A DNA stretch of 42,655 nucleotides from an uncultured Syntrophaceae bacterium (GCA_964353925.1 CAYGWV010000048.1:1-42655), one strand, 5' to 3'. Shown: positions 1,077 to 36,542, counted from the stretch's first letter. A program made the numbers and translations. The notes: a model not told the origin generated them from the sequence alone.

Positions 1077-1092
1077 AAAGGGGGTGCAAGTC

Positions 1093-2082: not shown

Positions 2083-2097
2083 CACAGAGTGCATGGG

Positions 2098-2222: not shown

Positions 2223-2245
2223 GCGGATTTTGCGAAAGGGAAACG

Positions 2246-13457: not shown

Positions 13458-14386
13458 CTGAAAATTTAAATGTTTTCGCAGTTCGGACATTGACTCAAAA
13501 AGAATATTTTACACCCGGCCATCGGTCCTGCCAGGGATGCGCCGAGGCATTGGCAGTGAGATTGGTCGCCAAAGCGCTGGGGAGGAACGTGATCATTGCG
13601 AATGCAACAGGCTGTATGGAGATCGTTTCTTCTCCGTTGCCCTACACGGCTTGGAAGGTCCCTTGGATCCATGTGGCTTTTGAGAATACGGCGGCTGTTG
13701 CCTCTGGCATCGAATCTGCCTTAAAGGTGTTGATGAGAAAGGGGAGAATCCCCAACAAAAAGATTGTCACCCTTGCCATGGGCGGGGATGGGGGAACAGC
13801 AGACATCGGTTTCCAGGCACTCTCGGGTGCCCTGGAGCGGGGGCACAACTTTCTCTACGTTTGCACCGACAATGAGGCCTATATGAACACCGGTATCCAG
13901 CGGTCCTCCTCGACGCCTTTTGGCGCCTCCACGACCACCTCTCCCGTCGGGAAGATTCAAATGGGGCAGATCACATGGAAGAAAAATATGCCTGCCATTG
14001 TGGCGGCTCATAATATTCCTTATGTGGCCACCGCCTGCCCCAGTTATCCGATCGACTTGGTGCAGAAAGTGAAGAAGGCGGCTGATATAGAGGGTCCTGC
14101 CTATGTTCATATTCTTTCTGTTTGTCCCACCGGGTGGAGATCGGCACCGGAACTCTCGATCAAGCTGGGTCGGTTGGCCGTAGAGACAGGGGTTTTTCCT
14201 CTTTATGAGGTGGAGAGGGGGCAATATCGTCTGAATATCGATTTCCCGAAATTGAAGCCTATTAAGGAATATATCAAGCCTCAAGGAAGGTTCCGTCACC
14301 TCACGGATGGAATGATCGAGGAGATTGAAAAACGAGTTCACAAGGAATATGAGCAATTAAGAGCGAAGGCAGGAAGGGGAGCGTGA
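13454..14386 (+). CDS. porB: 2-oxoacid:ferredoxin oxidoreductase beta subunit (TPP-binding)
   Basis: GHRSCQGC cluster ligands and the TPP motif [10 protein letters not shown] ... [11 protein letters not shown]. Confidence 0.9.
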
Positions 14387-14387
14387 A

Positions 14388-14867
14388 ATGGAAGTTTCAA
14401 AAATTGACAGTATCATTCGACAAAACGGAGGCAAGGAATCCGCTATCCTATCCATCCTTCAAGACGTTCAGGCCAAGGAGAAATACCTCCCCAAAGAAGC
14501 CCTTGAATATATAGGGGAGAAACTCCACATCCCATTGAATAAGATCTATCGGATAGCCACATTTTACCGGGCTTTCAGTCTCTCGCCGCGAGGCAAGCAT
14601 GAGGTCTGTGTCTGTATGGGAACCGCTTGCCATGTCCGTGGGGCACAGCGAATCGTTGATCAAATCAAACTGGCATTGGACATCCGACCAGGAGAGACGA
14701 CAAAGGATAAAAATTTTACCCTGGAAACGGTCAACTGCCTGGGCGTCTGCGCAGCCGGACCGGTGGTTGCAATCGACGGCCAGTACTTTGGAAAGTTGAG
14801 TCCGGCCAAGGTCGATGGGACCTTAAAAAAGTTTCGCTCTGATAAGAAAAAAGGAGGGGACGAATGA
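14388..14867 (+). CDS. NuoE/HydC-like thioredoxin-fold [2Fe-2S] subunit
   Basis: CVCMGTACHVRG ... CLGVCAAGP. Starts 1 nt after the porB stop. Confidence 0.85.
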   Translation: MEVSKIDSIIRQNGGKESAILSILQDVQAKEKYLPKEALEYIGEKLHIPLNKIYRIATFYRAFSLSPRGKHEVCVCMGTACHVRGAQRIVDQIKLALDIRPGETTKDKNFTLETVNCLGVCAAGPVVAIDGQYFGKLSPAKVDGTLKKFRSDKKKGGDE

Positions 14868-16735: not shown

Positions 16736-16737
16736 AA

Positions 16738-16830
16738 TATGAAGTAAATAAGTTAATAAGTTATTAGAGGACATAGCAAGTCAACAATCCAATACTCATT
16801 CACTCATTAACTTATTACCTCAACAACCTG
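16738..16830. repeat. low-complexity word palindrome (aataagttaat / attaacttatt)
   Basis: Inverted 11-mers about 50 nt apart in the spacer before the NuoG-like gene. Confidence 0.65.
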
Positions 16831-16850
16831 TATTGATTGGGAGGAGAGTT

Positions 16851-17567
16851 ATGACGATTCCCTTTACCATTGATGGGCAACCCGTTGAAGGAAAAGAGGG
16901 CGGAAATGTTTTGGAAGTGGCGTTGGATGCGGGATTTGATGTTCCACATCTTTGTTACAATGAATCGGTGAAGTCTTATGGTGCCTGCCGTCTCTGTCTG
17001 GTGGAGGTGAAGAGGAGAGGAAGGACAAGCATGACAACTTCCTGCACCTATCCTGTTTTGGAAGGGATTGAGGTGTTCACACAAACGGAGAAAGTATTGC
17101 GCGCCCGCCGAATGATCATCGAACTGATCTTGGCCATGTGTCCGGGAGACAAATTGATTCAAGACATGGCCGGAAAGATGGGCGTCCATGAGGTCCGGTT
17201 CAAACAGGGAGATAAAGACTGCATTCTCTGCGGTCTCTGCGCCAGGATCTGCCAGGAAGTCGTGGGAGCCAATGCGATTGAATTTGCCTTCCGGGGAGAT
17301 CGCAGAGAGATGATTCCTCCTTTTCAAGGAGAGGCGATGAGCTGTATCGCTTGCGGTGCCTGTGTGATCGCCTGTCCTGTAGATGTCATTCGGATGAAGG
17401 AAGAAAAGGATGAGCGGACGATCATCCGGTGGAAACGAACGTTGAAAATGAAGCAATGTAAGATCTGTGGAAATTATTTCGCCCCCTGGTTTCAGCTGGA
17501 AAAGTTCAAAGAGCAGGCCAAACTGCAAAAAGATTTTTTTGATGTCTGTTATACGTGTCGGACTTGA
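16851..17567 (+). CDS. truncated NuoG/HydA-N-terminal-like FeS subunit ([2Fe-2S] plus [4Fe-4S] clusters, no catalytic domain)
   Basis: ATG 16851 after ggaggag. CRLCLVEV, CILCGLCARICQ and CIACGACVIACP, plus a C-terminal CKICG..CYTC ribbon. The protein is only 238 aa. Confidence 0.8.
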   Translation: MTIPFTIDGQPVEGKEGGNVLEVALDAGFDVPHLCYNESVKSYGACRLCLVEVKRRGRTSMTTSCTYPVLEGIEVFTQTEKVLRARRMIIELILAMCPGDKLIQDMAGKMGVHEVRFKQGDKDCILCGLCARICQEVVGANAIEFAFRGDRREMIPPFQGEAMSCIACGACVIACPVDVIRMKEEKDERTIIRWKRTLKMKQCKICGNYFAPWFQLEKFKEQAKLQKDFFDVCYTCRT

Positions 17568-20778: not shown

Positions 20779-20872
20779 TGGCGGAAGTGCATGGGAATCG
20801 AACCCACCACGGACATCTCTGCCCGTCACTGGATTTGAAGTCCAGGAGGCCCACCAGAACCTGTCCACTTCC
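20779..20872 (-). tRNA. selC: tRNA-Sec (anticodon UCA), CCA encoded
   Basis: Reverse complement: ggaagtggacaggttctggtgggcctcctggacTTCAAatccag ... ggttcgattcc ... cacttccgcca. It has an 8-bp acceptor stem, a long variable arm and the UCA anticodon. Confidence 0.9.
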
Positions 20873-21730: not shown

Positions 21731-22560
21731 TTAGACCACCCATGCGGAATATGGGGATGGTTGGAATAGGTTTCGCCTAAGAATGAGGTCTGGCAGCGAT
21801 AAAAGAAATAACCTTTTACGAATGCCGGACCTCAATTTTTGCCTGCAATCCTTATAATGATGTTTTTGATGACTGGAGAATAGGTGAGATTGATCCCGGT
21901 ATGGCCACCCAAGATGACATGGATCCCTTTGGACCCTCTGAGCCAACTCGATATCCTTCGCATAGCCCAGATGGCTCAGGAGAATGATCAAATCGGTTTT
22001 GGGCTTAAGTTCTCTGACCATGGCCTGTGCCGTTTCGAGGGGTGAACGAAAGTTCAATCCCTTTTTCCGAGGGTCAGAAGGACTTGTAAAGAAATCGGGT
22101 AAGAGAAGGCTAAACAGACCAACTCGAAGACCATTGATTTCCTTAATGAGAAAGGTTTGAAAAAGATTTTTGCCGGATGCCTCATCGAGAAGGTTGGAAC
22201 AGACGAATGGGAAGTTAGCCTTCCTCGAAATTTCCAATAGAAATTCCTTCCCTAAGGTTAAATCATCATCCCCAATTCCCATGGCATCGTAACCCATTAA
22301 ATTGAAGCTCTCGATGATGAGATGGGTCTTTCCGGCCATCGCTGTTAACTCGTTTTCTGGAATGGGATTAAGATATTTCTTAAAAAGGAGATCGCCCGCA
22401 TCTGAAACGAGTATTCCCTTTTCACTCTCCCGCAAATCCTTCCCCCACGCTCCTCTTCTGGCCAGACCACCAGCTCGATTCTTCTCCCCTATTGATACTA
22501 TTACTATAGAGAAGCGTGAGAGTCTTAGGCGGAATCTTATTCAGCGAATAGGCATAATGT
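21731..22560 (-). pseudogene. decayed paralogue of the metallophosphoesterase-like gene at 30198..31334
   Basis: By eye about 90% nucleotide identity to 30540-31260. It has a frameshift after AQRVQ, a frameshift at 22487-22490, and has lost the segment encoding IDPCPT-UGA. Confidence 0.8.
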
Positions 22561-24734: not shown

Positions 24735-25007
24735 TCAAGAGATCTTCCTGGTGAAGTCAAGCCGTTTATCGAGAATGGTACCCGAAATTCTTAATGTTTT
24801 TTCTCGGGAGTGAAGGCCCTTGATGATTTCAATACAAGATGGGGAAATTCCAAATCCCTTAGCGAGGAAACGAATAAGAGCCTCATTCGCCTTTCCCTCA
24901 ACGGGTGGAGCAGTCACTTTCACCTTTATCCCATCCCGACAGGGACCCACCACCTCATTTTTGGACGACTTGGGCTGAAGATAGACTTTAAGGATGGTAT
25001 CTTTCAT
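24735..25007 (-). CDS. yggU: DUF167 (YggU) family protein
   Basis: ORF 24735..25064 trimmed to MKDTILKVYLQPKSSKNEVVG ... PPVEGKANEALIRFLAK. Confidence 0.8.
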   Translation of the reverse strand: MKDTILKVYLQPKSSKNEVVGPCRDGIKVKVTAPPVEGKANEALIRFLAKGFGISPSCIEIIKGLHSREKTLRISGTILDKRLDFTRKIS

Positions 25008-25125
25008 TCCTCTGTACTTAAGCTTGGAGCAGAGCGAACAAGGCGTAGGGTCAAATCCCCCCAACCCCCCTTTTCTAAATGGGGGGGATTATTGATTGCG
25101 TTATTACGCAGGCTGAAACCTGCGG

Positions 25126-25920
25126 CTACAGGTTAACCATGCCGATGAAAGAGAGTTGTCTTCCCGTCCGGCCTTCTTTTCGATACGAAAAGAAGAGATC
25201 GCCATGGCAGTGGGTACAAAGATTGATGCAGCAAATTTGCTCTTCCTCAATCCCTTCTCTCTTCATCTGACCGATATTGATCCGGGCGAGGTCCACCATC
25301 CACTTTCCTGCTCCTCCTGAGGCTGAAAAGGGTTTCCATTCCTGCTGAAATACCTTTTCATCGATTTCATAACAGAAAGGCCCTATGGAGGGGCCTATGG
25401 CGATGAAGAGATCTTTCGATAGGCAGCCGAACTCTTCCTCCATTTTTTTCAAAGCCTTTGCTGTGATGCCGAGGGCGGTCCCTTGCCTTCCGGCGTGGAT
25501 CGCAGCAATCACTTTCTTTTCTTGATCGACAACAAAGATCGGAAGGCAATCTGCGGTGAGAATGCCCAGGAAGATATTAGGAGAATTTGTGATTAGCGCA
25601 TCAAATTCTAAGGGGGAGGGGAGGGGAGTGATTGGTTTTTTCAGAAGAAGGATTTGGTCCTGGTGCATTTGATCGAGGAGGACCAAGCGGCTCGGATCAA
25701 ATCCAGAGGTTTCGGCAATGATCTTCTTATTCTTGGAGACAGATTCCTCCTGGTCGCCGTTCTTGTCGCTCAGGTTGAGCGAATCATAGGGGGAAAGGCT
25801 CACTCCTCCCTGGCGGGTTAGAAAGGCATGCCGCACCCATCTGATTTTGGCGAACTCAGGAATTTCGAAATAAGGAGGGTTGTTCTTTATTTTCAGAGCA
25901 GATTGGTCAAGGGTGTTCAA
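25126..25920 (-). CDS. pgeF: YfiH/PgeF (DUF152) purine nucleoside phosphorylase / laccase-domain protein
   Basis: TADCLPIF, IHAGRQG and CTHC motifs. Confidence 0.85.
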   Translation of the reverse strand: MNTLDQSALKIKNNPPYFEIPEFAKIRWVRHAFLTRQGGVSLSPYDSLNLSDKNGDQEESVSKNKKIIAETSGFDPSRLVLLDQMHQDQILLLKKPITPLPSPLEFDALITNSPNIFLGILTADCLPIFVVDQEKKVIAAIHAGRQGTALGITAKALKKMEEEFGCLSKDLFIAIGPSIGPFCYEIDEKVFQQEWKPFSASGGAGKWMVDLARINIGQMKREGIEEEQICCINLCTHCHGDLFFSYRKEGRTGRQLSFIGMVNL

Positions 25921-25995: not shown

Positions 25996-27030
25996 TTATC
26001 CATGTTTGGCCTTTGACCGCAACCACCCCACCACTTCGTTCATATCTTCAGGGAGGGGGGAAACAAATTTCACCCTTTCTCCACTTTGAGGGTGAGTGAA
26101 TTCTAATCGTCGGGCGTGAAGGGCCTGGCGATTCAATCTCTTTACACACTCTTTCAAAATAGGGTCATGGATCGCCCCGGGTCTACCTTTTCTTCCGTAG
26201 AGAGGGTCTCCCAAAACGGGATGACCAATGGAGGAGAGGTGCACTCGGATCTGATGGGTTCGGCCGGTTTGAGGAAAGATCTCAAGGAGAGTGCAGCACT
26301 CAAATTCCTCCACTTTCTTCCAGCGAGTGACGGCCGCCCTTCCTTTTCTCGTCCGGGTAGACATCCGCTTTCTCTCACTTGGGTGTCTTCCGATGGCCGA
26401 ATCGATTAAGCCTTCGTCAGGGCCGAATCTTCCGTAGGCAATGGCTAAATAGACCTTTTCCACAGTCCGGTTTCCAAACTGTTTGGTCAAATGATGAAAA
26501 GCCTCATCCTCTTTAGCGACAACCATCACACCCGATGTGTCCTTATCCAATCGGTGCACAATCCCTGGCCTTAAGACACCATTAATGCCGGCGAGATCTT
26601 TGCAATGGTAAAGAAGGGCATTGACCAATGTGCCGGAGGGGTTTCCATAAGCAGGATGGACAACCATTCCGGGAGGCTTGTCAATGACGATGAGGAACGG
26701 GTCCTCATACAGGACGGTCAGGGGAAGGGGTTCTGGTTGGAGAGAAAACGATTCAGGTGGGGGGAGGCTTCCTGAAATCCTATCACCCGCTTTTAGATGT
26801 GCACTGGGTTTGGTCGGTTTTTGGTTTAAAAGGATATGATGTCTCTGGATCAAATTTTTTGCGTGAGAACGGGAGAGATTGAGGTCGGCTTCCGAGAGAA
26901 ATTGGTCGAGGCGCCTTCCGTGATCCTTTTCCATGACTTGAATGGAGAAAGATAAGTTCCCCTCCCCCTTCTTTAGCAAAGGGGGGGTGGGGGGATTTTG
27001 GAAGTTATTCTTTATGGAATCTTGTATCAT
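25996..27030 (-). CDS. rluD: 23S rRNA pseudouridine synthase, RluD family
   Basis: S4 domain, HRLDKDTSG catalytic motif. ATGA overlap with the selA stop. The alternative start ATG 26934 would exclude the repeat-encoded PPTPPLLKKGEG segment. Confidence 0.85.
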   Translation of the reverse strand: MIQDSIKNNFQNPPTPPLLKKGEGNLSFSIQVMEKDHGRRLDQFLSEADLNLSRSHAKNLIQRHHILLNQKPTKPSAHLKAGDRISGSLPPPESFSLQPEPLPLTVLYEDPFLIVIDKPPGMVVHPAYGNPSGTLVNALLYHCKDLAGINGVLRPGIVHRLDKDTSGVMVVAKEDEAFHHLTKQFGNRTVEKVYLAIAYGRFGPDEGLIDSAIGRHPSERKRMSTRTRKGRAAVTRWKKVEEFECCTLLEIFPQTGRTHQIRVHLSSIGHPVLGDPLYGRKGRPGAIHDPILKECVKRLNRQALHARRLEFTHPQSGERVKFVSPLPEDMNEVVGWLRSKAKHG

Positions 27031-28460
27031 TGCGGCTGGAGGTATTTCAATGCCTTCTCAATTCCGGCAGCCAAAAGAGGGATCTCTTCATCGAAGACGG
27101 TTCTCATATCCAGAATCAATTCCTCTTTGCTGATTCGAGAAATAACCGGGGGATCACTCTTCCGTAGATTTTCTTCGAGGCTGTTCACGGAAAAGTCGAG
27201 AGGTTTAATGGCAACGGCCATGGTTGGAAGTTCTTGAAGGGGAAGGGCTCCACCGCCCACTTGAGAGACATCTTCTTTCAAATAGAGCGTCATCTTTTCA
27301 TCCATCATCCCCGACAACCTTTTCAGCAACTGTTTCCCTCTCTTTTTTAGCCTCTTTGTATCCAAACTCAACATGCTAAGAGCGGGAATCTCCTCCATGG
27401 CTCTCTTCTCGTCGAGGTAGAGAAGCAGGGTTGATTCGAGAGCGGCCAGGGTGAGTTTGTCGATGCGGAGGGCCCGGGTCAAGGGATTGATTTTAAAGAG
27501 GTCCAGAATTTTTTTCTTGCCCAGGATGATTCCCCCCTGTGGGCCTCCGAGGAGCTTATCCCCGCTAATGGTGACCGCATCCACACCGGTTTTGATCGTC
27601 TCTTGAACAGTAGGTTCTTTTTCTAATCCATATTGGGAGAGGTCCACGAGACAGCCGCTTCCTAAATCATCCACGATAGGAATCTGATGTTCCCTCCCGA
27701 GTTGCACCAGATCTTGGAGAGAGACTTCGGAGGTGAACCCCATCACTCTAAAATTACTAGTGTGGACTTTCAAGAGCAGAGCCGTGTGAGGGCCAAGGGC
27801 CTTCTGGTAATCGTCGAAGTGAGTACGATTGGTCGTCCCGACCTCCCTGAGCAAAGCCCCGCTTCGTTTCATGACATCGGGGATTCGAAAAGCCCCCCCG
27901 ATTTCGACCAGTTCTCCTCTCGAAACGATCACCTCCTTGCCCTCTGCAAGGGTATTCAAGGCAAGTAAGACAGCCGCGGCATTATTGTTCACCACCAGGG
28001 CTGATTCTGCTCCTGACAGACGGCACAGAATCTCTTCCACATGGGTATAACGGTCTCCGCGTTCACCCCGATCCAGGTCATATTCTAAATTGGAATAGGT
28101 TTTGGAGACCTCCATCAGATGTTTAATCGCAGAAGGGTGAAGTGGAGCTCTTCCTAGATTGGTGTGGATAACCACACCGGTCGCATTAATCACTCTGCGG
28201 AGATGGGGCTGAATCTGGAGATCGATCTCTTTCTGGAAAAGAGGGCAGAGGTTTTCGAAAGAGAAAAAGGCCTCTCCCAGTTGAGAGAGGTCTTGTTTGC
28301 GGAGGATTTCATCGCGCAGTCGTCCCAATCCCTTTCGGATGGCTTCGACCACGACATTGCGGGGATGGACCTTTAAGAGGTCAACGATCTCTGGCCTTGA
28401 GAGGATATCATCGACGCTTGGAATCTTACGGAGCACCTGTTGACGAAGGGATGGAGACAT
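27027..28460 (-). CDS. selA: L-seryl-tRNA(Sec) selenium transferase
   Basis: 477 aa with PLP-lysine motif ISGDKLLGGPQGG. GAGGAGG RBS 6 nt before ATG 28460. Confidence 0.9.
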   Translation of the reverse strand: MSPSLRQQVLRKIPSVDDILSRPEIVDLLKVHPRNVVVEAIRKGLGRLRDEILRKQDLSQLGEAFFSFENLCPLFQKEIDLQIQPHLRRVINATGVVIHTNLGRAPLHPSAIKHLMEVSKTYSNLEYDLDRGERGDRYTHVEEILCRLSGAESALVVNNNAAAVLLALNTLAEGKEVIVSRGELVEIGGAFRIPDVMKRSGALLREVGTTNRTHFDDYQKALGPHTALLLKVHTSNFRVMGFTSEVSLQDLVQLGREHQIPIVDDLGSGCLVDLSQYGLEKEPTVQETIKTGVDAVTISGDKLLGGPQGGIILGKKKILDLFKINPLTRALRIDKLTLAALESTLLLYLDEKRAMEEIPALSMLSLDTKRLKKRGKQLLKRLSGMMDEKMTLYLKEDVSQVGGGALPLQELPTMAVAIKPLDFSVNSLEENLRKSDPPVISRISKEELILDMRTVFDEEIPLLAAGIEKALKYLQPQ

Positions 28461-30198
28461 TGGGTTTCCTCCTCATCAGGAGTGTTTTAAAGATCTTAAT
28501 GAAGTTCATTCGAATGAATCGGGTGGGCCACTCCAGTTCTTTTTTCTCACAGATGGTGGACATGCTATAGCGGCGGAGGGAGTGACGTCCGCTTGAAATG
28601 GACTGCAAGATAATCTCTCTCTCTCTGGCATCTGGAAGAGCCATGATCCGGTCGATCTCCTTCATCATCCGGACGGACCCCTCAAGCCGACCCTCGACCG
28701 ATTCTGCGGTCTTCGGGTCGATTAGCCCGAATTGGGCCTTCAGCCGGTTGAGTCTTTTCCCGGCTTCGTAGGTGCTGTAAACGATCTCATCCCGATTCAT
28801 CCATTCCGTTTCATAGTTGAGGATATATTTCCAGCTGGGAGACAATGAGGCCTGACGGTGTTCTTCCACGGTTCGATAAAGCAGACGGTATCCATATTTT
28901 TCTGGCGCTTCAAAGACAGTACTTCCGGGATCCAAGAAGGGGGCCAGGGGAGAGATGAAGGGATAGAGTTTGTTGTAAGAGCGAAATCGTTCTAATAGGG
29001 AATGACAATAATCGACCGTTTCCAGAACGGATGGAAAGGTTTGTTTTGGAAGGCCGGTCATGAAGAACAGATCAATCCGCTTCGAGCCAAGATCGACAGC
29101 ATCCCCGATCATCCTTTCCAGCGATTCGTTGTTGTAAGGTCTTCCGAAAGCCCTCCGGACCTCCTCATCGTGAGACTCAGGAGAGATTTCGATATTGAAG
29201 TTGAGAATGGACTCAGCAATCCTTTTCAGTTGAGCCCTCGTGGGAGGAACAAAAAATTCAAAAGCGATATGGTTGCTGATCGGCCTGCTCTTCATCTCCT
29301 GAAGAAAAGTGGAACTATATTCTTCTCCGGGTTGAAAGATATCGCCGATGATCATCACCGGAGCATGAAGGTGATCCGAGACATTGAAGATATCTTGTGC
29401 CAGTAACTTGGGGTTGCGATAGGCGGGTTTCCTGCGGTTGGCCATCGTTCGAAAGGTCTGCGCCGAGCCTCCGCAAGTTCTGCAAGAGTAGGTGCATCCC
29501 CGGCAGGTGAAGACGGCTGTCACGGGATAGGTGTACCAATCCACAAAAGGCTGGTACCCTGTGGGATCAAGATACCTCACCACCTTCTTCATGATGTGAC
29601 TGTAATCGATCGTCATCTCGTCAAGGTTCTCTGGTACATGGGTGAGGGGATTGACCTGAATTCGGTTTTTTTCATCCCGGTAGGTGAGGTTAGGAATACT
29701 TTTGAACTCTCCGCCTTTTTTGATGGTTTGAAGGAGTTGGACCAACGGTTTCTCTGTGGAATCTCCTCTCATCACAAAATCAATAAATGGATATTGACGG
29801 AGTATCTCTTCATGATAATACGTGGCAGAGAGCCCACCTAAGATGACAGGGATGTTGGGATGAAACCGTTTAATGATCTCTGCGAGGGCCAATGCTCCCT
29901 GGACATGGGCCATCCAATGGAGATCGATCCCGAAGGCCAGAGGCTTATTTTTCTGGATGAGCCGCTCCACATCGAATTTCTCATCCTTCAGCATCTTCAT
30001 GGCCACATTGATGATCCTGACCTTAAGACCATGGCGTTCCAAATATTCTGAGAGGCTGGCAAACCCAATGGGATACATTTCAAAGATGGGGGTGGAGGGA
30101 ACGACATCGCTGATCGGACCATGGATCCCGGGCCGCTTTCTAAAGTCGTAAAGGGTAGGGGGATGCAAAAGGATGAGATCAATACTTGCCATCTTCAT
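28426..30198 (-). CDS. B12-binding-domain radical SAM protein (class B), subfamily unassigned
   Basis: N-terminal Rossmann-like B12-type domain (LILLHPP ... VILGGLSATY) and cluster motif CRGCTYSCRTC (CxxxCxxC). Its start overlaps the upstream gene's stop (TGATG), and its 3' end overlaps selA by 35 nt. Confidence 0.8.
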   Translation of the reverse strand: MKMASIDLILLHPPTLYDFRKRPGIHGPISDVVPSTPIFEMYPIGFASLSEYLERHGLKVRIINVAMKMLKDEKFDVERLIQKNKPLAFGIDLHWMAHVQGALALAEIIKRFHPNIPVILGGLSATYYHEEILRQYPFIDFVMRGDSTEKPLVQLLQTIKKGGEFKSIPNLTYRDEKNRIQVNPLTHVPENLDEMTIDYSHIMKKVVRYLDPTGYQPFVDWYTYPVTAVFTCRGCTYSCRTCGGSAQTFRTMANRRKPAYRNPKLLAQDIFNVSDHLHAPVMIIGDIFQPGEEYSSTFLQEMKSRPISNHIAFEFFVPPTRAQLKRIAESILNFNIEISPESHDEEVRRAFGRPYNNESLERMIGDAVDLGSKRIDLFFMTGLPKQTFPSVLETVDYCHSLLERFRSYNKLYPFISPLAPFLDPGSTVFEAPEKYGYRLLYRTVEEHRQASLSPSWKYILNYETEWMNRDEIVYSTYEAGKRLNRLKAQFGLIDPKTAESVEGRLEGSVRMMKEIDRIMALPDAREREIILQSISSGRHSLRRYSMSTICEKKELEWPTRFIRMNFIKIFKTLLMRRKPNVSIPSSTGAP

Positions 30199-31334
30199 CA
30201 CTTCGGAGGCACAGGGTTCTCTGTGGTTTGGGTTTTTGCCTTATAGGCTTCGACCGACCTTTTAATCTCGGGATCGTCCTTCATCTGTTCATGTAGTGAA
30301 ATGACGCGATTCATAAATTGGTTTTTACCCCGGAGCTGGCTCAGGGTTCGTTCAGCCTCTTCCTTGGCCTTTCGCAATTGTGTTCTTTCAGCCTCTGGCA
30401 TTGCCTTAGAACTTAATCGTTCGTTGTAACTCTTGAGGTTGTTCTCCAAAGATAGTCTTGTTGCCGAATTGTAAAAGACCGGCTCACTGTTATAAAAGAG
30501 GAGGTCAAGTCTTCCTCCAATCATTCCTCGAGAAGCGGTCTGCAGAATAATGATGTTTTTGATGACGGGGGGATAGGGGAGATTGATCCCGGTATGGCCC
30601 CCCGAGATGACATTGATTCCTTGGACCCTCTGAGCGAATTCGATATCCTTCGCATAGCCCAGATGGCTCAGGAGAATGATCAAATCGGTTTTTGGCTTAA
30701 GTTCTCTGACCATCGCCTCTGCTGTTTCGATGGGTGAACGAAAATTCAATCCCTTCTTTCGAGGATCAGAAGGACTTGCAAAGAAATCGGGTGAGAGAAG
30801 GCTGAACAGACCAATTCGAAGACCATTCATTTCTTTAATGAGAGAGGTTTGAAAAAGATTTTTGCCGGATGCCTCGTCGAGAAGGTTGGAACATAGGAAT
30901 GGAAAGTTAGCCTTCTTCGAAATTTCCAATAGAAATTCCTTCCCGAAGGTTAAATCATCATCCCCAATTCCCATGGCATCGTAACCCATTAAATTGAAGC
31001 TCTCGATGATGAGATGGGCCTTTCCGGCCATTGCTGTTAACTCGTTTTCCGGAATGGGATTAACATATTTCTTAAAAAGGAGATCGCCCGCATCTAAAAC
31101 GAGTATTCCCTTTTCACTCTCCCGTAAATCCTTCACCCACGCTCCTCTTCTGGCCAGACCGCCAGCTCGATTCTTTTCCCCTCAGGTCGGGCAGGGGTCA
31201 ATCTCCCCATTGATATTATTGCTATAGACGAGGGTAAGAGTCTTAGGTGATTTTTGGGCATGGGATGGAGATGCATTGAAGAGCAAGAAAAATCCCAGAA
31301 CCAAACCGCCGGTCACAAACCATTTTCCATTCAT
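30198..31334 (-). CDS. secreted metallophosphoesterase / 5'-nucleotidase-N-terminal-like protein with in-frame UGA (candidate selenocysteine, motif C-P-T-U)
   Basis: ORFs 31182..31370 and 30198..31136 are in the same frame, separated only by TGA 31182-31184. Together they reconstitute one phosphoesterase-fold domain (motif I region upstream of the UGA, LDAGD downstream). Signal peptide MNGKWFVTGGLVLGFFLLFNASPSHA. Confidence 0.6.
31150..31165 (-). promoter_or_regulatory. candidate minimal SECIS hairpin
   Basis: CUGGC-GGUCUG-GCCAG begins 16 nt after the UGA, with GGU in the apical loop. It is only 5 bp, so the evidence is weak by itself. Confidence 0.3.
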
Positions 31335-31549: not shown

Positions 31550-32401
31550 CTATGTAATCCAGGGATTGGGGACTGGTCTCTTATAGCCTTTTTGGGAGGC
31601 CAGAATATCGAGATGGAGGGTGGCCAGGTCCTCTAAAACCGGATCTGACTCCTGCAGGTTTCTGTAATCGATGGTTTTAATATATTGACGACATTTGTCA
31701 CAAAGATCAATGCGATGGGTTTCCTCTCCCTCTCCATAAAAATAATGAAGAGATTGCTGATCTTTGTTTTTGCAGAAAGGGCAGAATATTCGATCCATTC
31801 TCCACTGATAGCCACAGAAGGAACAGAGGAGATACCGCTTTCCCACCTCTTCTTTCAATAGACTTAACGAGGGGAGAGAGCCACACAGAGGACAATAGCC
31901 TTTCAGCCAGGTTTCAGGATCGAGTTCGCTGCGAAGCCGTTCCACTCCGGCTTCAATCGAAGGCCTGATGCTGCTGCGAAATAAAAATAAAAAAACATTT
32001 TTGTCCAGTCCAAGTTCTTCGACAATCTCCTCCCTCCGTTGCTCCTTTAATCCGCCCCCCAGTAATTTCTTCAAGTCTATTCTTTTGTCGTCGATAGCTT
32101 CTTTGATCTTTTTCAGCTGCTCAGCCATATGCGGGTTTGCATTTTTCCCGACCTGACAAAGTGTTTCGAAGAGCTTAACGGATGATTCAATATCCAATGG
32201 GAAATCTTCTTTCTGAATCAATGAGAAGCCTTCTTTGGAGAGGAGTTTCTTCCATTCCTTCCCGAGTTGTGCGGAATCAATCTCTAAAGGGGCTTTTACT
32301 TTTTCTTGCGCTTCTTTGACGCTTTGATAGAAATCAAGGATCTTTCCATAGCCAGGTCTTTTCTTTTTAATCTGTTGAATTCTTTCTTTTAACCTATCCA
32401 A
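31550..32401 (-). CDS. fdhE: formate dehydrogenase accessory protein FdhE
   Basis: Four CxxC pairs (CPLCGS, CSFCGY, CPFCKN, CDKCRQY) in a 283-aa protein next to fdhAB. Confidence 0.85.
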   Translation of the reverse strand: MDRLKERIQQIKKKRPGYGKILDFYQSVKEAQEKVKAPLEIDSAQLGKEWKKLLSKEGFSLIQKEDFPLDIESSVKLFETLCQVGKNANPHMAEQLKKIKEAIDDKRIDLKKLLGGGLKEQRREEIVEELGLDKNVFLFLFRSSIRPSIEAGVERLRSELDPETWLKGYCPLCGSLPSLSLLKEEVGKRYLLCSFCGYQWRMDRIFCPFCKNKDQQSLHYFYGEGEETHRIDLCDKCRQYIKTIDYRNLQESDPVLEDLATLHLDILASQKGYKRPVPNPWIT

Positions 32402-32730
32402 TCATTCCTCCAATCTCTAAAAGTTTCCCCTCCCTTGGCGCCTGCCTGCGCGAAGCCCCGCCTTGCGGGACGAAGGCAGGGGAGGGGATAGAGGGGGGGA
32501 AAATTGATATCTCCACCCTCACCCCCGCCCTCTCCCGTTAAGGGAGAGGGAGAAGCCTGTCGATGAGGGATGGTAATGGAAAAAAACGGGCTTGTTTCGT
32601 GACTCCCGTTCGAAACAAGCCCTGGTTTTCCCCCTTACTAAGGTTTTCCTCTCACCCTTCCCGTTCGGCTGAGCTCACGGCGAAGCCCTCTCTCCAGTAA
32701 GGGAGAGGGATGAGGTGAGGGGGTAGGGTT
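32402..32730. repeat. cluster of at least four GC-rich palindromic elements
   Basis: gcgaagccccgccttgcgggacgaaggc; ccctctcccgttaagggagaggg; gggcttgtttcg..cgaaacaagccc; ccctctctccagtaagggagaggg. Confidence 0.75.
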
Positions 32731-33465
32731 CTATCCGATCATGTGTCGAAGGTCGCTCAAAGGTTGAAAGAGACGTCTGAGCGCCATCTTCCTTGTAATG
32801 CCAATGGCGTTCTCCGCCACAGCGAATTTGTGATACTTTTTGGGATCATCCGCTAGGAGATAGATTATCCGAACATCATCGGGATTGCCAAGCATGGCAT
32901 CTTTATAAACTTTTTTCACCTCTTCCAACCTCTTGTTAGCTTTGTCGATGATGTCTTTTCTATCTCCAAAGTTCATTGCTCCAGTCGGGCACGTCTTGAC
33001 ACAAGCCGGCAGCATCCCTTCTTTGACTCGGTCAATACACATTGTGCATTTGGCCATTACCCCCATTCTCTCATCCCATCGAGGAATATCATAGGGACAA
33101 GATTCTCGGATGGCTTTAAGATCGGCTGGCTTCACTTTTATCTTTGGATTGAAAACCACTGCGCCTGTGGCCTCATCCTTGGGAATGGCCTTGGATCCCA
33201 AGGATTCGGCCGTAGCCTTGCAGGGTGGTTCCATACAGTGTCTGCACTGATCAGGGAAGAAATACCACTTCGGATTCCCATTCTCTTCGAACTCGCTGAA
33301 CCTCACCAATTTGTAGGTGAAGAAGTTGAGATCCTGAGGATTTTGGTGACTTCCACGCTGGATGGTCTTTGTTCCTGGATTTCTATTCCACTGCTTGCAG
33401 GCAATCTGACATCCCCTGCAGGCTGTGCATTTGGTCGTATCTATGAAAAAGGATTTGTCTGCCAT
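32731..33465 (-). CDS. fdhB: formate dehydrogenase iron-sulfur (beta) subunit
   Basis: Multiple 4Fe-4S motifs (CTACRGCQIACK, CRHCMEPPC, CTMCIDR ... PACVKTCP). I see no C-terminal membrane anchor. Confidence 0.85.
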   Translation of the reverse strand: MADKSFFIDTTKCTACRGCQIACKQWNRNPGTKTIQRGSHQNPQDLNFFTYKLVRFSEFEENGNPKWYFFPDQCRHCMEPPCKATAESLGSKAIPKDEATGAVVFNPKIKVKPADLKAIRESCPYDIPRWDERMGVMAKCTMCIDRVKEGMLPACVKTCPTGAMNFGDRKDIIDKANKRLEEVKKVYKDAMLGNPDDVRIIYLLADDPKKYHKFAVAENAIGITRKMALRRLFQPLSDLRHMIG

Positions 33466-33479
33466 TTAAGTCACCTCCT

Positions 33480-36400
33480 TTAACTTTTTACCGGCTTCTT
33501 CGCCGGTTGTTTGGCCAATTTTCTTACATTGACCATGAATGCCTTCGATTCAGGGATCATCGTATTGGGATCCCCGATCGTTGGGGTGAGCAGATTGGCA
33601 CTCTCCCCACCATCCTTCGGATGGAGCCAGCCGAAATGCCAGGGAATTCCTACTTGGTGAACGGTCTGGCCAGCAATGTTGAACGGTTTTAAGCGAAATG
33701 TCACGATGGCCACAGCTTCCACTTTGCCTCGGGCCGTTTCCACAATCACCCTGTCACCGTTCTTGATCTCTCTGAGCTTGGCCAGCTCCAGACTCATCTC
33801 GCAAAACATTTGAGGTTCAGCCTCGATGAGCCAGGGAAGCCAGCGGGTGAGAACTCCGGTCTGCCAGTGTTCAGTTACACGATAGGTTGAGCAAACAAAA
33901 GGATATTTGGGATCGCAAGTAAGGAACGTATCCAGGCCCCCTTCAAAGATTTTGATGACCGGATTGATCCTCTGGTTGGACATCAAGTTCTTTTCAATGG
34001 GACACTCCAGGGGTTCATAATGTTCGGGGAAGGGCCCATCTTTTAGTCCAGGTCCGAAAATCGAGGCTACGCCATCCGGTTTCATGATGAACGGATAGAC
34101 TCCGGTGGTTCCCATCGGAGGTACGGCATTGTCGGGAACATCCCCTATCCATCGTTTATTGTCTGCGTCCCATTTGAGCAAAGGCCGTTTTGGATCCCTT
34201 GGATTTCCATCCAGATCTACAGAAGCTCGGTTGTAAATGATTCTTCTGTTGAGTGGCCAACACCATGACCACTCCGGATAGAGGCCCAATCCAGTCGGAT
34301 CAGTCTTCTTTCTTCGGGCGGCCATATTTCCAGCCTCGGTATAACTGGCAGAATAGAGCCAGTCCCCGCAGGAGGTCCGGCCATCATCGAGAAGGTAAAC
34401 AAAGTTCGGGACAAGCGTTCCTTTTTTATAAGCCTTCTTGTCAACGGGATGTTCCGGGATATCTTCCATAAAGTAGCCGTTAATTTCTTTGGCTATCTTA
34501 TGGACATCCAAATGGCCATTGGTCTCATAGTCCCATTTCAAATTCAATATGGGTTCAGGGAAAGCCCCTTTCTCTTTTTCATAGAGAGCTTTCAGTTTCT
34601 TAAATAACTCAAACATGATATCTGCATCGGGTTTGGCCACTCCCGGGGGATTGCATGCCTTATTACGCCACTGCATCCAACGGCCGCTGTTGCTGATGCT
34701 TCCTTCCTTTTCCAAAAAGGCTGCGCAAGGTAGCTGAAAGACCTCGGTTTTGATCTTGTTTGGATCCATCCCTGGGCCTTTCCAGAAGGACCCAGTCTCA
34801 TTATCGAAGACATTCACATTGACCATCCAGTCAAGCTTGGTGAATGCCTGACGGACCTTCCCCGCGTTGGCGCTTGAACAGGCTGGGTTCATACCCCACG
34901 CAAAGAAACCTGTGAAAGATCCTTTATACATTTCGTCAAAGAGATTCAACCAGGAAGCGTCTTGACCCGTATCGAGTTTCGGCATCCATGCATAACCAAA
35001 TTCATTCTCTTTTGTGGCTTTATCCCCAAACGTCGATTTCAAAAGACTGGCCACATATTTAGGTCGATTCTTCCACCAGTTGACACTTCGGGGATCCTTT
35101 GAGGCTGGCGTGGTTTTATTGTAATCGGCCAAGGTTGCTAAATGAGCTTGGGGATTAGGTAAGTATCCTGGCCAGATATGAAAGAGGAGCCCTGCATCGG
35201 TCGAGCCCTGAACATTCGATTCGCCTCGAAGGGCATTTACGCCTCCGCCTGCAATGCCCATATTTCCAAGAAGTGATTGGATGATGGACATGGCCCGGAT
35301 ATTCTGAACGCCCACGGTATGCTGCGTCCACCCCATGGCGTATAACACGGTCCCGCTTTTATCCGGAGCGCCGGTAGCCCCATACGCCCTATAAACTTTT
35401 TCCAAATCTGCCACTGGAGTTCCTGTGATTTCCGAAACCTTCTGGAGCGTATAGCGGGAATAATGTTTCTTGAGAAGTTGCAAGGCACAACGGGGATCCT
35501 GCAGGCTCATATCCCTCTGGGGAATCCCCTGCTCGTCCTTTTCTAATGCCCAGGTGGATGCATCATAAGCCCTTTTCGATGGATCATAGCCCGAGAAAAG
35601 CCCGTCATCGAATCCGTACTTGGGATTCGCGATGGAAGAGGCATTGGTGTAGTTCTTGACGTAGAACTCATCATAGAGATTATTGTCCAGAATGTACTTG
35701 ATCATCCCGCCAAGAAAAGCGATATCGGTTCCTGAACGAAGTCTGGCAAAGATATCAGCTTTGGTGGATGTTCGAGTGAATCTTGGGTCCACATGGATAA
35801 AGATAGTGCCCTTATCCTTGGCCGCTTGGATCCATTTAAATGAAACGGGGTGGTTTTCGGCAACATTGCTACCCATATTCAAAATCACATCGGCATTACG
35901 AAAATCGATGTAATGATTGGTCATTGCACCGCGTCCGAACGACTCTCCCAGAGCCGCTACAGTTGCGCTGTGTCAGATACGAGCCTGGTGCTCAATATAA
36001 ACGAGGCCCAGGGACCTAAGAAACTTTTGGTAGAGCCAGCATTCCTCATTGTCCATGGCTGCGCTTCCCACAGAGGCGATGCCATTGGTCCGGTTCACAA
36101 CCTGGCCTTTTGCATTTTTCTCCATGAAGCTCTTGTCGCGGCTCTTCTTGATGTTCGCTGCAATCTTGTTCAGAGCCCATTCCCAACTGACTTCTTTCCA
36201 TGCAGCGCTGGAGGGCGCGCGGTAAAGGACTTTCTGTAAACGATTGGGATTGACCGCGATTTGATAGCTTGAGCCCCCTTTTGGGCACAGGGCGCCTTCG
36301 TTGATGGGATGGTCGGGATCCCCCTCGGCATTGATCACCTTCCCTTTGGCATCGGTATGGACGATAATACCGCAGCCGACCGAGCAGTAGCAGCAGACCG

Positions 36401-36542
36401 TGGTGGTTGGCTTGGCCCCTTTAATTCGTAATTCCTGGGCATAGACCTCGGCTGGAGAGAGGTCGAATCCTAGGCCACCCATCACCGTCCCGGAGGCTGT
36501 TGCCCCAGAAATCTTCAAAAATGTTCTTCTGGTAATTTTCAT
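33480..36542 (-). CDS. fdhA: periplasmic formate dehydrogenase catalytic (alpha) subunit, selenocysteine-containing
   Basis: Tat signal MKITRRTFLK. ORFs 35973..36542 and 33480..35924 join in frame through TGA 35973-35975, giving HQARI-U-HSATVAALGESFG, the canonical Sec position of FdnG-type enzymes. Confidence 0.9.
35938..35958 (-). promoter_or_regulatory. candidate SECIS hairpin of fdhA
   Basis: AGCGGCUCU-GGG-AGAGUCGUU (9 bp including G-U pairs) starts 14 nt after the UGA. Hand-folded only. Confidence 0.4.

What the first reader, a model, noticed from the sequence alone, without database searches (positions are those of the whole stretch)
27027..31334. Translationally coupled trio: Sec-candidate phosphoesterase-like protein, B12-binding radical SAM enzyme, SelA
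- The stop of the Sec-candidate gene overlaps the radical SAM start (TGATG at 30196-30200).
- The radical SAM gene runs 35 nt past the selA start codon, and that ATG has a strong GAGGAGG RBS.
- selA overlaps rluD by ATGA.
- selA is usually found next to selB, but here no selB follows.
- Tight coupling of the Sec-synthesis enzyme to a class B radical SAM protein and an exported Cys-Sec protein is not an arrangement I recognise. It could be a dedicated maturation or modification module. For example, the radical SAM enzyme might act on the exported protein or on a small-molecule or lipid substrate.
- The radical SAM subfamily cannot be assigned from sequence by eye.
Basis: partly seen in the sequence, partly recalled or inferred. 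Interest (0 to 1): 0.7.

Follow-up and report, generated by a model that had tools for sequence, protein, structure and literature searches.

The report
Selenoprotein, B12 radical-SAM, selA gene string
Three tightly overlapping genes (an exported selenoprotein, a vitamin-B12 radical-SAM enzyme and the selenocysteine synthase SelA) are really there, but comparison with 80 other genomes indicates they are neighbours by descent and not a dedicated machine, and it links the uncharacterised radical-SAM enzyme to quinone synthesis and formate dehydrogenase.

Summary

The "dedicated maturation module" reading is not supported.
- **Radical SAM gene.** It is a clean member of NCBIfam TIGR04190, a defined but uncharacterised cobalamin-type family (668 bits, cutoff 500).
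- **Selenoprotein neighbour.** In 80 species-level genomes, the UshA-like selenoprotein precedes the radical SAM gene only in the closest relatives (radical SAM at least 77% identical). One of those relatives has a patatin-like gene in that position instead. The window also holds a decaying partial copy of the selenoprotein gene elsewhere.
- **selA link.** This link is older. selA directly follows the radical SAM gene throughout a Thermodesulfobacteriota clade (55-88% identity). In other phyla the enzyme sits in strings of the form fdhA-fdhB-nrfD-fdhE-mobA-menA-polyprenyl synthase-small radical SAM-B12 radical SAM-selC-selA-selB.
- **Menaquinone link.** Two further clades lack sel and fdh genes nearby. 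There the enzyme sits next to menA or ubiE/menG.

The best reading is a lineage-specific operon left over from an old formate dehydrogenase, quinone and selenocysteine neighbourhood. The radical SAM enzyme probably acts on an isoprenoid quinone or lipid; that step is inferred. The selenoprotein is a short CxxU variant of a known family and has lost the nucleotidase metal ligands.

The parts
30198..31334 (-). UshA-like (calcineurin-fold) exported selenoprotein, 378 aa, with a signal peptide, a C-P-T-U motif and a coiled-coil C-terminal tail
   Evidence: ORF and translation. NF041198 scores 241.7 bits against a cutoff of 275. NF049981 scores 73 bits against a cutoff of 140. Aligned with 5'-nucleotidase 2z1a, motif I HTNDTHAH becomes YSNNINGE and motif III GNHEFD becomes GDDDLT. 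The C-terminal nucleotide-binding domain is missing.
31182..31184 (-). In-frame TGA read as selenocysteine
   Evidence: The TGA and the flanking protein sequence on both sides are conserved in L004-L009.
31150..31165 (-). SECIS-like hairpin CUGGC-GGUCUG-GCCAG, starting 16 nt after the UGA
   Evidence: Five predicted pairs, one covarying as CG, UA and UG. Third codon positions are nearly invariant across proteins 51-71% identical. A single-sequence fold is not significant (z = -0.74).
28426..30198 (-). Class B (cobalamin-type) radical SAM enzyme of family TIGR04190, 590/591 aa
   Evidence: TIGR04190 scores 668 bits against a cutoff of 500. PF02310 and PF04055 both match. The CxxxCxxC motif is C236/C240/C243. 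The AlphaFold2 model has pLDDT 92.3. The best structural matches are TsrM, OxsB, TokK, MgmA and CysS.
28468..28474 (-). GAGGAGG ribosome-binding site for selA, inside the 3' end of the radical SAM gene
   Evidence: Read directly from the sequence.
27027..28460 (-). selA (L-seryl-tRNA(Sec) selenium transferase)
   Evidence: TIGR00474 scores 629 bits against a cutoff of 268. PF03841 scores 536 bits.
25996..27030 (-). rluD-type pseudouridine synthase, overlapping selA by ATGA
   Evidence: TIGR00005 scores 296 bits. Sequence read directly.
25126..25920 (-). pgeF/yfiH, the usual partner of rluD and part of the same gene string
   Evidence: TIGR00726 scores 178 bits. The selA-rluD-pgeF order is conserved in clade B relatives.
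31550..32401 (-). fdhE, formate dehydrogenase accessory gene, upstream of the trio
   Evidence: PF24860 and PF24859 match. fdhE lies upstream of the radical SAM gene in L005, L009, L010, L023, L025, L026, L051 and L052.
32731..36542 (-). fdhA (Tat signal, Sec codon at 35973-35975) and fdhB
   Evidence: Translation gives ...HQARI-U-HSATVAALGESFGRG. TIGR01553 matches.
20779..20872 (-). tRNA-Sec (selC)
   Evidence: ARAGORN. Rfam RF01852 scores 81.4 bits.
21731..22500 (-). Decaying partial duplicate of the UshA-like gene
   Evidence: About 94% DNA identity over roughly 650 nt. A 26-nt deletion removes GEIDPCPT-U. There is also a +1 frameshift and a 3' truncation.

Best explanation
**What it is.** The string ushA-like(Sec)-radical SAM-selA-rluD-pgeF is one tightly packed, probably co-transcribed operon. 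It is specific to a Thermodesulfobacteriota (Syntrophia-like) lineage. It joins genes with separate jobs and is not a maturation module.

**How the parts relate.**
- The radical SAM enzyme is a member of the widespread, uncharacterised TIGR04190 family. It has one [4Fe-4S] cluster plus a cobalamin domain.
- Its position beside selA is inherited from an older neighbourhood. In that neighbourhood a selenocysteine-containing, quinone-linked formate dehydrogenase (fdhA-fdhB-nrfD-fdhE-mobA), menaquinone genes (menA, polyprenyl diphosphate synthase), a small radical SAM partner, this B12 radical SAM enzyme and the Sec machinery (selC-selA-selB) lie together.
- In the window's lineage most of that neighbourhood has dispersed. 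An UshA-like selenoprotein gene was inserted recently between fdhE and the radical SAM gene.

**Inferred mechanism.**
- The enzyme probably performs a cobalamin-dependent radical methylation, or a related C-H functionalisation, on an isoprenoid quinone or another polyprenyl lipid used in formate/quinone electron transfer. It probably does not act on the selenoprotein, tRNA-Sec or SelA.
- The UshA-like protein is a periplasmic Cys-x-x-Sec protein that has lost the nucleotidase metal ligands. It is therefore likely a redox or chalcogen-handling protein. Its position next to selA makes sense as a co-expressed client of the Sec system.

**Shown versus inferred.** Shown: gene identities, overlaps, and the synteny pattern across 80 genomes. 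Inferred: co-transcription, the ancestral cluster, and the enzyme's substrate.
For: **Family membership**
- Searches place the enzyme in TIGR04190 with a class B radical SAM fold.

**Synteny across 80 species-level loci**
- The UshA-like gene is adjacent only in L004-L009.
- selA lies immediately downstream in L004-L016, L019 and L045.
- L017 and L024 have selA-selB-radical SAM.
- L052 and L025 have radical SAM-selC-selA-selB, with FDH upstream (tRNA-Sec).
- L023 has fdhA-fdhB-nrfD-fdhE-mobA-small radical SAM-radical SAM-selB.
- L026 has fdhA-fdhB-nrfD-fdhE-mobA-menA-polyprenyl synthase-small radical SAM-radical SAM.
- menA is adjacent in the Ignavibacteria loci L041, L046 and L068, and also in L069.
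- ubiE/menG is adjacent in six Nitrospirota loci. In several it follows a multihaem cytochrome c and a cytochrome b.
- Neighbour identities come from NCBIfam and Pfam.
- By a rough estimate that is not a tool result, a men gene within 3 kb of a random gene is expected in under 1% of genomes. About 17 of 80 were observed, spread over at least three deep clades.

**Conservation and composition**
- Between the window and L004 the radical SAM protein is the most conserved in the string and the UshA-like protein the least: 88% versus 71%, with SelA at 85%.
- More than 100 metagenomic clusters are 87-96% identical to the radical SAM protein.
- GC3 is 0.49 for the UshA-like gene, 0.58 for the radical SAM gene and 0.56 for selA.
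- A second, decaying copy of the UshA-like gene lies in the same window.

**Operon structure**
- The 14 radical SAM residues that include the overlap with selA (578-591) are modelled as disordered.
- A strong terminator after fdhB and a 215-nt AT-rich gap before the UshA-like gene fit a separate transcription unit.

**Physiological context**
- Syntrophus uses 8-methylmenaquinone between an ETF:quinone oxidoreductase and a membrane formate dehydrogenase (PMC8805022).
- The window also carries etfB, etfA and a fixC-like gene.
Against: - The window itself contains no menA, ubiE, polyprenyl synthase, nrfD or small radical SAM gene.
- About 40 of the 80 loci have no men, sel or fdh gene within 10 kb. 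Most are Anaerolineae, where the enzyme often sits between moxR and a DUF58 gene. Context is therefore not uniform.
- The loci were chosen as the 80 best of 591 matches. Many come from short contigs, and related genomes are not independent observations.
- No biochemical datum exists for any TIGR04190 member (no papers found).
- Methylmenaquinone is made elsewhere by class C MenK/MqnK enzymes, so a B12 enzyme is not needed for that step.
- Co-transcription is not shown. The promoter and terminator scan was uninformative.
Confidence: 0.55

Rival explanations
1. The radical SAM enzyme is a dedicated maturase that modifies the exported Cys-x-x-Sec UshA-like protein before export, and selA is co-expressed to supply Sec.
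For: The stop and start overlap by one base, and the order UshA-like-radical SAM-selA is kept in seven genomes: the window and L004-L009.
Against: - 74 of 80 radical SAM loci have no UshA-like gene within 10 kb.
- L010, inside the same clade, has a patatin-like gene in that position.
- The radical SAM protein is far more conserved than the UshA-like protein (88% versus 71%).
- No SPASM or peptide-recognition domain is detected.
- The family also occurs in archaea that show other gene contexts.
Confidence: 0.05
2. The radical SAM enzyme works in selenium or formate dehydrogenase biology itself. Examples are maturation of the Mo/W-bis-PGD or Sec active site of FDH, or methylation of a selenium compound. 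That would explain why it travels with selA, selB, selC and fdh genes.
For: sel and/or fdh genes lie within 10 kb in about 23 of 80 loci, in at least five different gene orders and several phyla. mobA and fdhE lie in the same strings.
Against: - The Nitrospirota and Ignavibacteria clades have ubiE or menA next to the enzyme and no sel or fdh genes nearby.
- About 35 Anaerolineae loci have none of these genes.
- In the long clusters the enzyme is contiguous with menA, polyprenyl synthase and the small radical SAM gene, not with fdhA or fdhB.
- FDH maturation is already accounted for by FdhD, FdhE and MobA in well-studied systems (established knowledge, not tested here).
Confidence: 0.15
3. The enzyme is a bacterial counterpart of the archaeal B12 radical SAM enzymes that remodel membrane-lipid tails (Grs ring synthases; Gmm, Cgm and Pgm methylases; Ted desaturase). 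It modifies a membrane lipid and not a quinone. All adjacency to sel, fdh and men genes is hitch-hiking.
For: - The family is named after a Thermoplasma protein.
- Archaeal relatives exist.
- Archaeal lipid-tail enzymes have the same domain layout, and Grs is predicted to lack an auxiliary cluster (PMC13459092, bioRxiv 10.1101/2025.10.20.683597).
- A small radical SAM partner recurs, as gms does with grs and gmm in archaea (PMC11214058).
- A polyprenyl synthase gene is adjacent.
Against: - The small partner is not Gms. Gms is AhbD-like and at least 400 aa. The partner here is 306 aa and scores only 36 bits against the AhbD model (PMC11214058).
- The adjacent prenyltransferase scores as MenA (TIGR00751, 129 bits against a cutoff of 102) and only 36 bits against the archaeal lipid prenyltransferase model.
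- No tes or mss gene was recognised nearby, but this was not searched rigorously.
- The relationship to Grs could not be tested because no Grs sequence was available.
Confidence: 0.15
4. The string has no functional meaning. It is a compact operon of unrelated housekeeping genes assembled by drift, and the radical SAM substrate is unrelated to any neighbour.
For: Neighbours differ between clades: moxR/DUF58 in Anaerolineae, V-type ATPase genes in some Nitrospirota, AMMECR1 in archaea. rluD-pgeF is a common pair unrelated to selenium.
Against: The same two gene sets (men and sel/fdh) recur next to the enzyme in different orders and different phyla. This is hard to obtain by drift.
Confidence: 0.1

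Closest known systems
NCBIfam TIGR04190 (B12_SAM_Ta0216), within the class B cobalamin-dependent radical SAM enzymes (TsrM, TokK, OxsB, CysS, MgmA)
   Same: The HMM score is above the curated cutoff. The protein has an N-terminal B12-binding Rossmann domain, a CxxxCxxC radical SAM barrel and a helical C-terminal domain. There is no conserved extra cysteine cluster. Structural matches have TM-scores of about 0.5.
   Different: No member of the family has a known substrate. Sequence identity to any solved enzyme is 10-16%.
Archaeal B12 radical SAM enzymes acting on isoprenoid lipid tails: GrsA/GrsB, Gmm, Cgm/Pgm, Ted
   Same: Same domain architecture. Those enzymes act on isoprenoid chains, and the bacterial enzyme repeatedly sits beside a polyprenyl diphosphate synthase and a prenyltransferase. 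A second, small radical SAM gene is often adjacent.
   Different: Homology beyond the shared superfamily was not tested because no sequences were available. The bacterial neighbours are MenA and UbiE (quinone genes), not tes, mss or gms.
MenK/MqnK/MenK2 menaquinone C-methyltransferases
   Same: They are radical SAM enzymes that modify menaquinone for low-potential electron transfer, including formate-linked respiration.
   Different: They are class C (HemN-like) enzymes without a cobalamin domain. The protein studied here shows no similarity to them in the NCBIfam scan.
UshA-like selenoproteins (COG0737; NF041198 'PCGU', CxU motif; NF049981 'family 2', CxxU motif)
   Same: Exported calcineurin-fold protein with Sec in the loop after the first phosphoesterase motif. 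The family has been recognised since the GOS selenoproteome study (PMC2398784) and is listed in PMC13188914.
   Different: The score is below both curated cutoffs. The motif is CPTU, not PCGU. The protein is only 378 aa, with no 5'-nucleotidase C-terminal domain and a coiled-coil tail in its place. Metal-ligand motifs I and III are replaced.
Classical selAB (selC) operon
   Same: selA is a full-length orthologue, and tRNA-Sec lies 6 kb away on the same strand.
   Different: selB is not adjacent and is absent from the window. selA is instead fused into a radical SAM-selA-rluD-pgeF string, an arrangement shared by a whole Thermodesulfobacteriota clade.

Membership tests
TIGR04190 B12-binding/radical SAM family | Whole-protein HMM score at or above the curated cutoff (500 bits) | tested here: met
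   668 bits, covering residues 8-541 and profile positions 1-528 of 554.
TIGR04190 B12-binding/radical SAM family | N-terminal B12-binding domain plus a radical SAM domain with CxxxCxxC | tested here: met
   PF02310 scores 62.8 bits and PF04055 scores 36.5 bits. C236, C240 and C243 are nearly invariant in 32 homologues.
Class B (cobalamin-dependent) radical SAM enzymes | Rossmann-like cobalamin domain packed on a partial TIM barrel, as in TsrM, TokK and OxsB | tested here: met
   The model has pLDDT 92.3. Foldseek top hits are TsrM, OxsB, TokK, MgmA and CysS, with E-values of 1e-16 to 1e-11.
Class B (cobalamin-dependent) radical SAM enzymes | Actual cobalamin binding and methyl transfer | not testable with these tools
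   This needs purified protein, UV-vis or EPR spectroscopy and an activity assay.
Archaeal GDGT-tail B12 radical SAM enzymes (Grs/Gmm/Cgm/Ted) | Clustering with characterised members (Saci_1585, Saci_0240, Saci_1785, X802_RS00110) in a phylogeny | not tested
   Reference sequences could not be obtained. Name look-ups for distant relatives gave only generic names.
MenK/MqnK class C menaquinone methyltransferases | HemN-like class C radical SAM architecture | tested here: not met
   No HemN-like or MenK-like family appears among the NCBIfam or Pfam hits. The architecture is class B.
UshA-like selenoprotein NF041198 (PCGU) | HMM score at or above the cutoff of 275 bits over the full 519-position profile | tested here: not met
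   241.7 bits, aligned only to profile positions 6-382. The protein is 378 aa.
UshA-like selenoprotein NF041198 (PCGU) | Sec in a C-x-U (PCGU) motif | tested here: not met
   The motif here is P-C-P-T-U, which is CxxU.
[quoted passage not shown] | HMM score at or above the cutoff of 140 bits | tested here: not met
   73.2 bits, aligned only to profile positions 1-91 of 262.
[quoted passage not shown] | CxxU motif | tested here: met
   The motif is CPTU. The CxxU motif for this family is taken from the table in PMC13188914.
Bacterial selenoprotein gene (general) | Conserved in-frame UGA, coding conservation on both sides, and a SECIS-like hairpin downstream | tested here: met
   The UGA and its flanks are conserved in L004-L009. 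The hairpin has a GGUCUG loop and one covarying pair. Sec insertion itself is not shown.
Catalytically active 5'-nucleotidase / calcineurin-like phosphoesterase | Metal-ligand motifs D-x-H (motif I) and GNH[ED] (motif III), plus the C-terminal substrate domain | tested here: not met
   Aligned with 2z1a, HTNDTHAH becomes YSNNINGE and GNHEFD becomes GDDDLT. The alignment ends near residue 252, and there is no Pfam 5_nucleotid_C hit.
SelA (TIGR00474) | HMM score at or above the cutoff, with the SelA N-terminal and catalytic domains | tested here: met
   629 bits against a cutoff of 268. PF12390 and PF03841 both match.
Canonical selAB operon | selB immediately downstream of selA | tested here: not met
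   rluD follows selA. tblastn finds no SelB in the window.

The most novel reading that the evidence does not exclude
TIGR04190 enzymes, in some lineages together with a roughly 306-aa partner radical SAM protein related to the PTO1314 family, are an unrecognised cobalamin-dependent enzyme system. It tailors menaquinone, on the ring or on the polyprenyl tail, for low-potential formate/quinone redox loops. It has been co-inherited across bacterial phyla with a selenocysteine formate dehydrogenase and the Sec-insertion genes as one 'formate-quinone-selenium' island. The window shows a reduced remnant of that island.
Probability: 0.25. Interest if true: 0.7.

Novelty: new member of a known kind. 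Interest (0 to 1): 0.4.

Why it matters
**The trio as described is ordinary.** It is a lineage-specific operon built from a known selenoprotein family, a catalogued radical SAM family and selA.

**The radical SAM family is the useful lead.**
- TIGR04190 is widespread in anaerobes and extremely conserved, with more than 100 environmental clusters 87-96% identical to this protein.
- It has no known function.
- Its context across 80 genomes gives the first testable lead: menaquinone or isoprenoid chemistry tied to selenium-dependent formate dehydrogenase.
- If this holds, it adds a new enzyme to anaerobic quinone biosynthesis. Low-potential quinones are central to energy conservation in syntrophic bacteria.

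**The selenoprotein is a smaller lead.** It is a short CxxU variant that has lost the nucleotidase metal ligands. This suggests a phosphoesterase fold re-used for selenium-based redox chemistry.

Tried and rejected
- **Single-sequence fold of the region after the UGA.** Not better than shuffles (z = -0.74). The SECIS claim rests on the comparative alignment instead.
- **Promoter and terminator consensus scan of 24.5-37.2 kb.** Fewer promoter-like sites than in shuffles and no informative terminator. The fdhB terminator was found by eye and folded separately.
- **Literature.** Searches for TIGR04190 and Ta0216 returned no papers. No paper was found that links cobalamin-dependent radical SAM enzymes to menaquinone.
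- **PDB sequence search with the radical SAM protein.** Only a marginal TokK hit.
- **Locus search with the 32-sequence alignment.** Too diverse to use. A 10-sequence alignment worked.
- **Link to GDGT ring synthases.** Looking up source names of distant or archaeal relatives gave only generic names. The papers that define Grs and the Syntrophus quinone were not held.
- **Small partner radical SAM as Gms.** Rejected. Gms is AhbD-like and at least 400 aa, and the partner scores only 36 bits against the AhbD model (PMC11214058).
- **UshA-like protein as a working nucleotidase.** Rejected because metal-ligand motifs I and III are replaced and the substrate domain is absent.
- **My ORF caller on high-GC loci.** It produced spurious wrong-strand ORFs for L025, L051 and L052. 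For those loci only the tblastn-based flags were used.

Full report
**1. The observation**

All genes in the region lie on the minus strand. In order they are:
- fdhA (33480-36542, Sec codon at 35973-35975, Tat signal)
- fdhB (32731-33465)
- a strong hairpin terminator (32580-32622, -21.5 kcal/mol)
- fdhE (31550-32401)
- a 215-nt AT-rich gap
- the UshA-like gene (30198-31334)
- the radical SAM gene (28426-30198)
- selA (27027-28460)
- rluD (25996-27030)
- pgeF (25126-25920)
- a DUF167 gene (24735-25064)

- TGATG lies at 30196-30200.
- The radical SAM gene overlaps selA by 35 nt, with GAGGAGG 7 nt before the selA ATG.
- ATGA lies at the selA/rluD junction.
- No selB is found anywhere in the window.
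- tRNA-Sec lies at 20779-20872.

Overlapping stops and starts are common in operons. They show tight packing and not a shared function.

**2. The three genes**

*Radical SAM enzyme.*
- It scores 668 bits on NCBIfam TIGR04190 against a cutoff of 500. The next family scores only 62 bits.
- It has a B12-binding domain and a radical SAM domain.
- CxxxCxxC is at C236/C240/C243, and no other cysteine is conserved.
- A confident AlphaFold2 model (pLDDT 92.3) matches the cobalamin-dependent enzymes TsrM, OxsB, TokK, MgmA and CysS at TM-scores of about 0.5.
- The last 14 residues include those that overlap selA. They are modelled as disordered.
- No paper mentions TIGR04190 or Ta0216, so the family is defined but has no known function.

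*SelA.* It is a full-length orthologue (629 bits).

*UshA-like protein.*
- It has a signal peptide and the motif DPCPT-U-G.
- It scores 241.7 bits on NF041198 "UshA-like (seleno)protein", below the cutoff of 275 and aligned to only 6-382 of 519 profile positions.
- It scores 73 bits on NF049981 "family 2", below the cutoff of 140.
- UshA-like selenoproteins have been known since 2008 (PMC2398784, CxU motif). Both NCBIfam families are listed in a 2026 review (PMC13188914).
- Aligned with the Thermus 5'-nucleotidase 2z1a, the metal-ligand motifs are replaced: HTNDTHAH becomes YSNNINGE and GNHEFD becomes GDDDLT. The C-terminal nucleotide-binding domain is missing.
- It is therefore a short CxxU variant and is unlikely to be a nucleotidase.

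*Evidence that the TGA encodes Sec.*
- The TGA and the coding sequence on both sides are conserved in six species-level relatives.
- A hairpin YUGGC-GGUCUG-GCCAR starts 16 nt after the UGA.
- Its closing pair changes as C-G, U-A and U.G.
- Its third codon positions are almost invariant although the proteins are only 51-71% identical.
- A single-sequence fold alone is not significant.

**3. Is the trio conserved?**

A scan of one genome per species with a radical SAM alignment gave 591 matches. The best 80 were retrieved (47-88% identity). I compared them by tblastn, ORF clustering and a neighbour-joining tree.

*UshA-like gene.*
- It lies directly upstream of the radical SAM gene only in L004-L009, where the radical SAM is at least 77% identical.
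- L010 (78%) has a patatin-like gene in that slot.
- The other 73 loci have no UshA-like gene within 10 kb.

*selA.*
- It follows the radical SAM gene, and rluD-pgeF follows selA where the contig reaches that far, in L004-L016, L019 and L045 (55-88% identity). These are all Thermodesulfobacteriota-type genomes.
- Only the closest relatives keep the overlap. The others have 12-22 nt gaps.
- L017 and L024 have selA-selB-radical SAM.

*A clade drawn from Spirochaetota, Planctomycetota, Lentisphaerota, Aerophobetes and unclassified bacteria.*
- L026 has fdhA-fdhB-nrfD-fdhE-mobA-menA-polyprenyl diphosphate synthase-small radical SAM-B12 radical SAM.
- L023 has the same FDH block, then the small radical SAM, the B12 radical SAM and selB, with selC and selA nearby.
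- L025 and L052 have the FDH block, the men genes and the two radical SAM genes, followed by selC-selA-selB (tRNA-Sec).

*Ignavibacteria (L041, L046, L068).* menA lies directly upstream.

*Nitrospirota (six loci).* ubiE/menG is adjacent. In several loci it follows a multihaem cytochrome c and a cytochrome b.

*Anaerolineae (about 35 loci).* None of these genes is nearby, and the enzyme often sits between moxR and a DUF58 gene.

Neighbour identities come from NCBIfam and Pfam:
- MenA scores 129 bits on TIGR00751 against a cutoff of 102.
- UbiE scores 239 bits on TIGR01934.
- The polyprenyl synthase and NrfD were assigned in the same way.
- The small radical SAM protein is closest to the PTO1314 family, at 123 bits and below its cutoff.

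**4. Interpretation**

The pairing with the UshA-like gene is young and dispensable.
- That gene is the least conserved in the string. It is 71% identical between the window and L004, against 88% for the radical SAM protein and 85% for SelA.
- Its GC3 is lower: 0.49 against 0.56-0.58.
- A second copy in the same window is decaying. It is about 94% identical, has a 26-nt deletion that removes GEIDPCPT-U, and carries a frameshift and a truncation.

The link to sel genes is much older, and it comes with formate dehydrogenase and menaquinone genes. The common denominator across three deep clades is menaquinone or isoprenoid synthesis.

The simplest history is an old neighbourhood that held four things together:
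- a selenium-dependent, quinone-linked formate dehydrogenase
- the genes for its quinone
- the two radical SAM enzymes
- the Sec machinery

The window's lineage kept fdhAB, fdhE, the B12 radical SAM gene and selA. It lost or moved the rest and gained the selenoprotein gene.

*Inferred function of the radical SAM enzyme.*
- It probably performs a cobalamin-dependent methylation, or a related radical modification, on an isoprenoid quinone or lipid.
- A physiological setting exists. Syntrophus uses 8-methylmenaquinone between an ETF:quinone oxidoreductase and a membrane formate dehydrogenase (PMC8805022), and the window carries etfB, etfA and a fixC-like gene.
- The step from context to substrate is not shown. 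The window has no men genes, half the loci give no hint, and methylmenaquinone is made by class C MenK-type enzymes elsewhere.

**5. Rivals**

- *Maturase for the selenoprotein.* This is contradicted by the synteny pattern.
- *A role in selenium or FDH maturation.* It fits about 23 loci. It does not fit the Nitrospirota and Ignavibacteria clades, and the Anaerolineae loci show no sel or fdh genes nearby either.
- *A lipid-tail enzyme like the archaeal Grs, Gmm, Cgm and Ted enzymes* (PMC13459092, PMC11214058, bioRxiv 10.1101/2025.10.20.683597). This remains open. I could not obtain those sequences to test relatedness.
  - Archaeal relatives sit beside AMMECR1, and in one case near a small SPASM radical SAM gene.
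  - The small partner is not Gms.
- *Pure drift.* This is unlikely, because the same gene sets recur in different orders and different phyla.

**6. Verdict**

- The "dedicated module" interpretation is not supported.
- The parts belong to known kinds.
- The useful by-product is a testable functional lead for a very conserved, uncharacterised radical SAM family.

Noticed in passing
window 21731-22500 (-): Partial duplicate of the UshA-like selenoprotein gene, about 94% identical over roughly 650 nt. A 26-nt deletion removes exactly the GEIDPCPT-U motif and most of the TGA. There is also a +1 frameshift and a 3' truncation. It lies about 860 nt upstream of tRNA-Sec and still carries the SECIS-like hairpin with one C-to-T change.
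   Followed up: yes
window 20779-20872 (-): tRNA-Sec (selC) lies 6 kb downstream of selA on the same strand. Close relatives keep selC downstream of rluD-pgeF. In L025 and L052 selC sits directly between the radical SAM gene and selA.
   Followed up: yes
window 32402-32730 (-), especially 32580-32622: The fdhB-fdhE spacer holds a 12-bp hairpin followed by T7 (-21.5 kcal/mol), which looks like an intrinsic terminator. It is flanked by G/C-rich inverted repeats of the CCCTCTCCC/GGGAGAGGG type that resemble a repeated extragenic element. fdhAB and fdhE are therefore probably separate transcription units.
   Followed up: partly
window 37-3535 (+): etfB, etfA and a fixC-like FAD oxidoreductase (ETF:quinone oxidoreductase type) lie together. 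This is typical of electron transfer from beta-oxidation into a quinone pool and fits a syntroph-like lifestyle.
   Followed up: partly
window 12285-17567 (+): Pyruvate:ferredoxin oxidoreductase porA and porB are followed by nuoE-like, nuoF-like and hoxU/nuoG-like genes. This could be a soluble NADH-linked hydrogenase or formate dehydrogenase diaphorase module.
   Followed up: no
L027, L028, L030, L047, L053 and other Anaerolineae loci: In Anaerolineae the TIGR04190 gene is repeatedly sandwiched between a moxR-type AAA+ ATPase gene and a DUF58 gene. These two genes are normally adjacent partners.
   Followed up: no
L084 7351-9740; L085 434-2739: In two archaeal relatives (Hydrothermarchaeota and an HR06-like archaeon) the B12 radical SAM gene is next to an AMMECR1-domain gene. 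L084 also has a 311-aa radical SAM/SPASM gene 1 kb upstream.
   Followed up: no
P0296 and P0324 (relatives of the UshA-like protein): Two database entries read through the Sec position, as Leu (CPTLG) and Trp (CPSWD). The Trp is probably a gene call made with a code in which TGA encodes Trp. The Leu may be a real substitution or a sequencing error. No Cys-for-Sec homologue was seen among the 120 closest relatives.
   Followed up: partly
L036 9914-11689 and 17782-19467: One genome carries two TIGR04190 paralogues 6 kb apart on opposite strands, with V-type ATPase genes between them.
   Followed up: no
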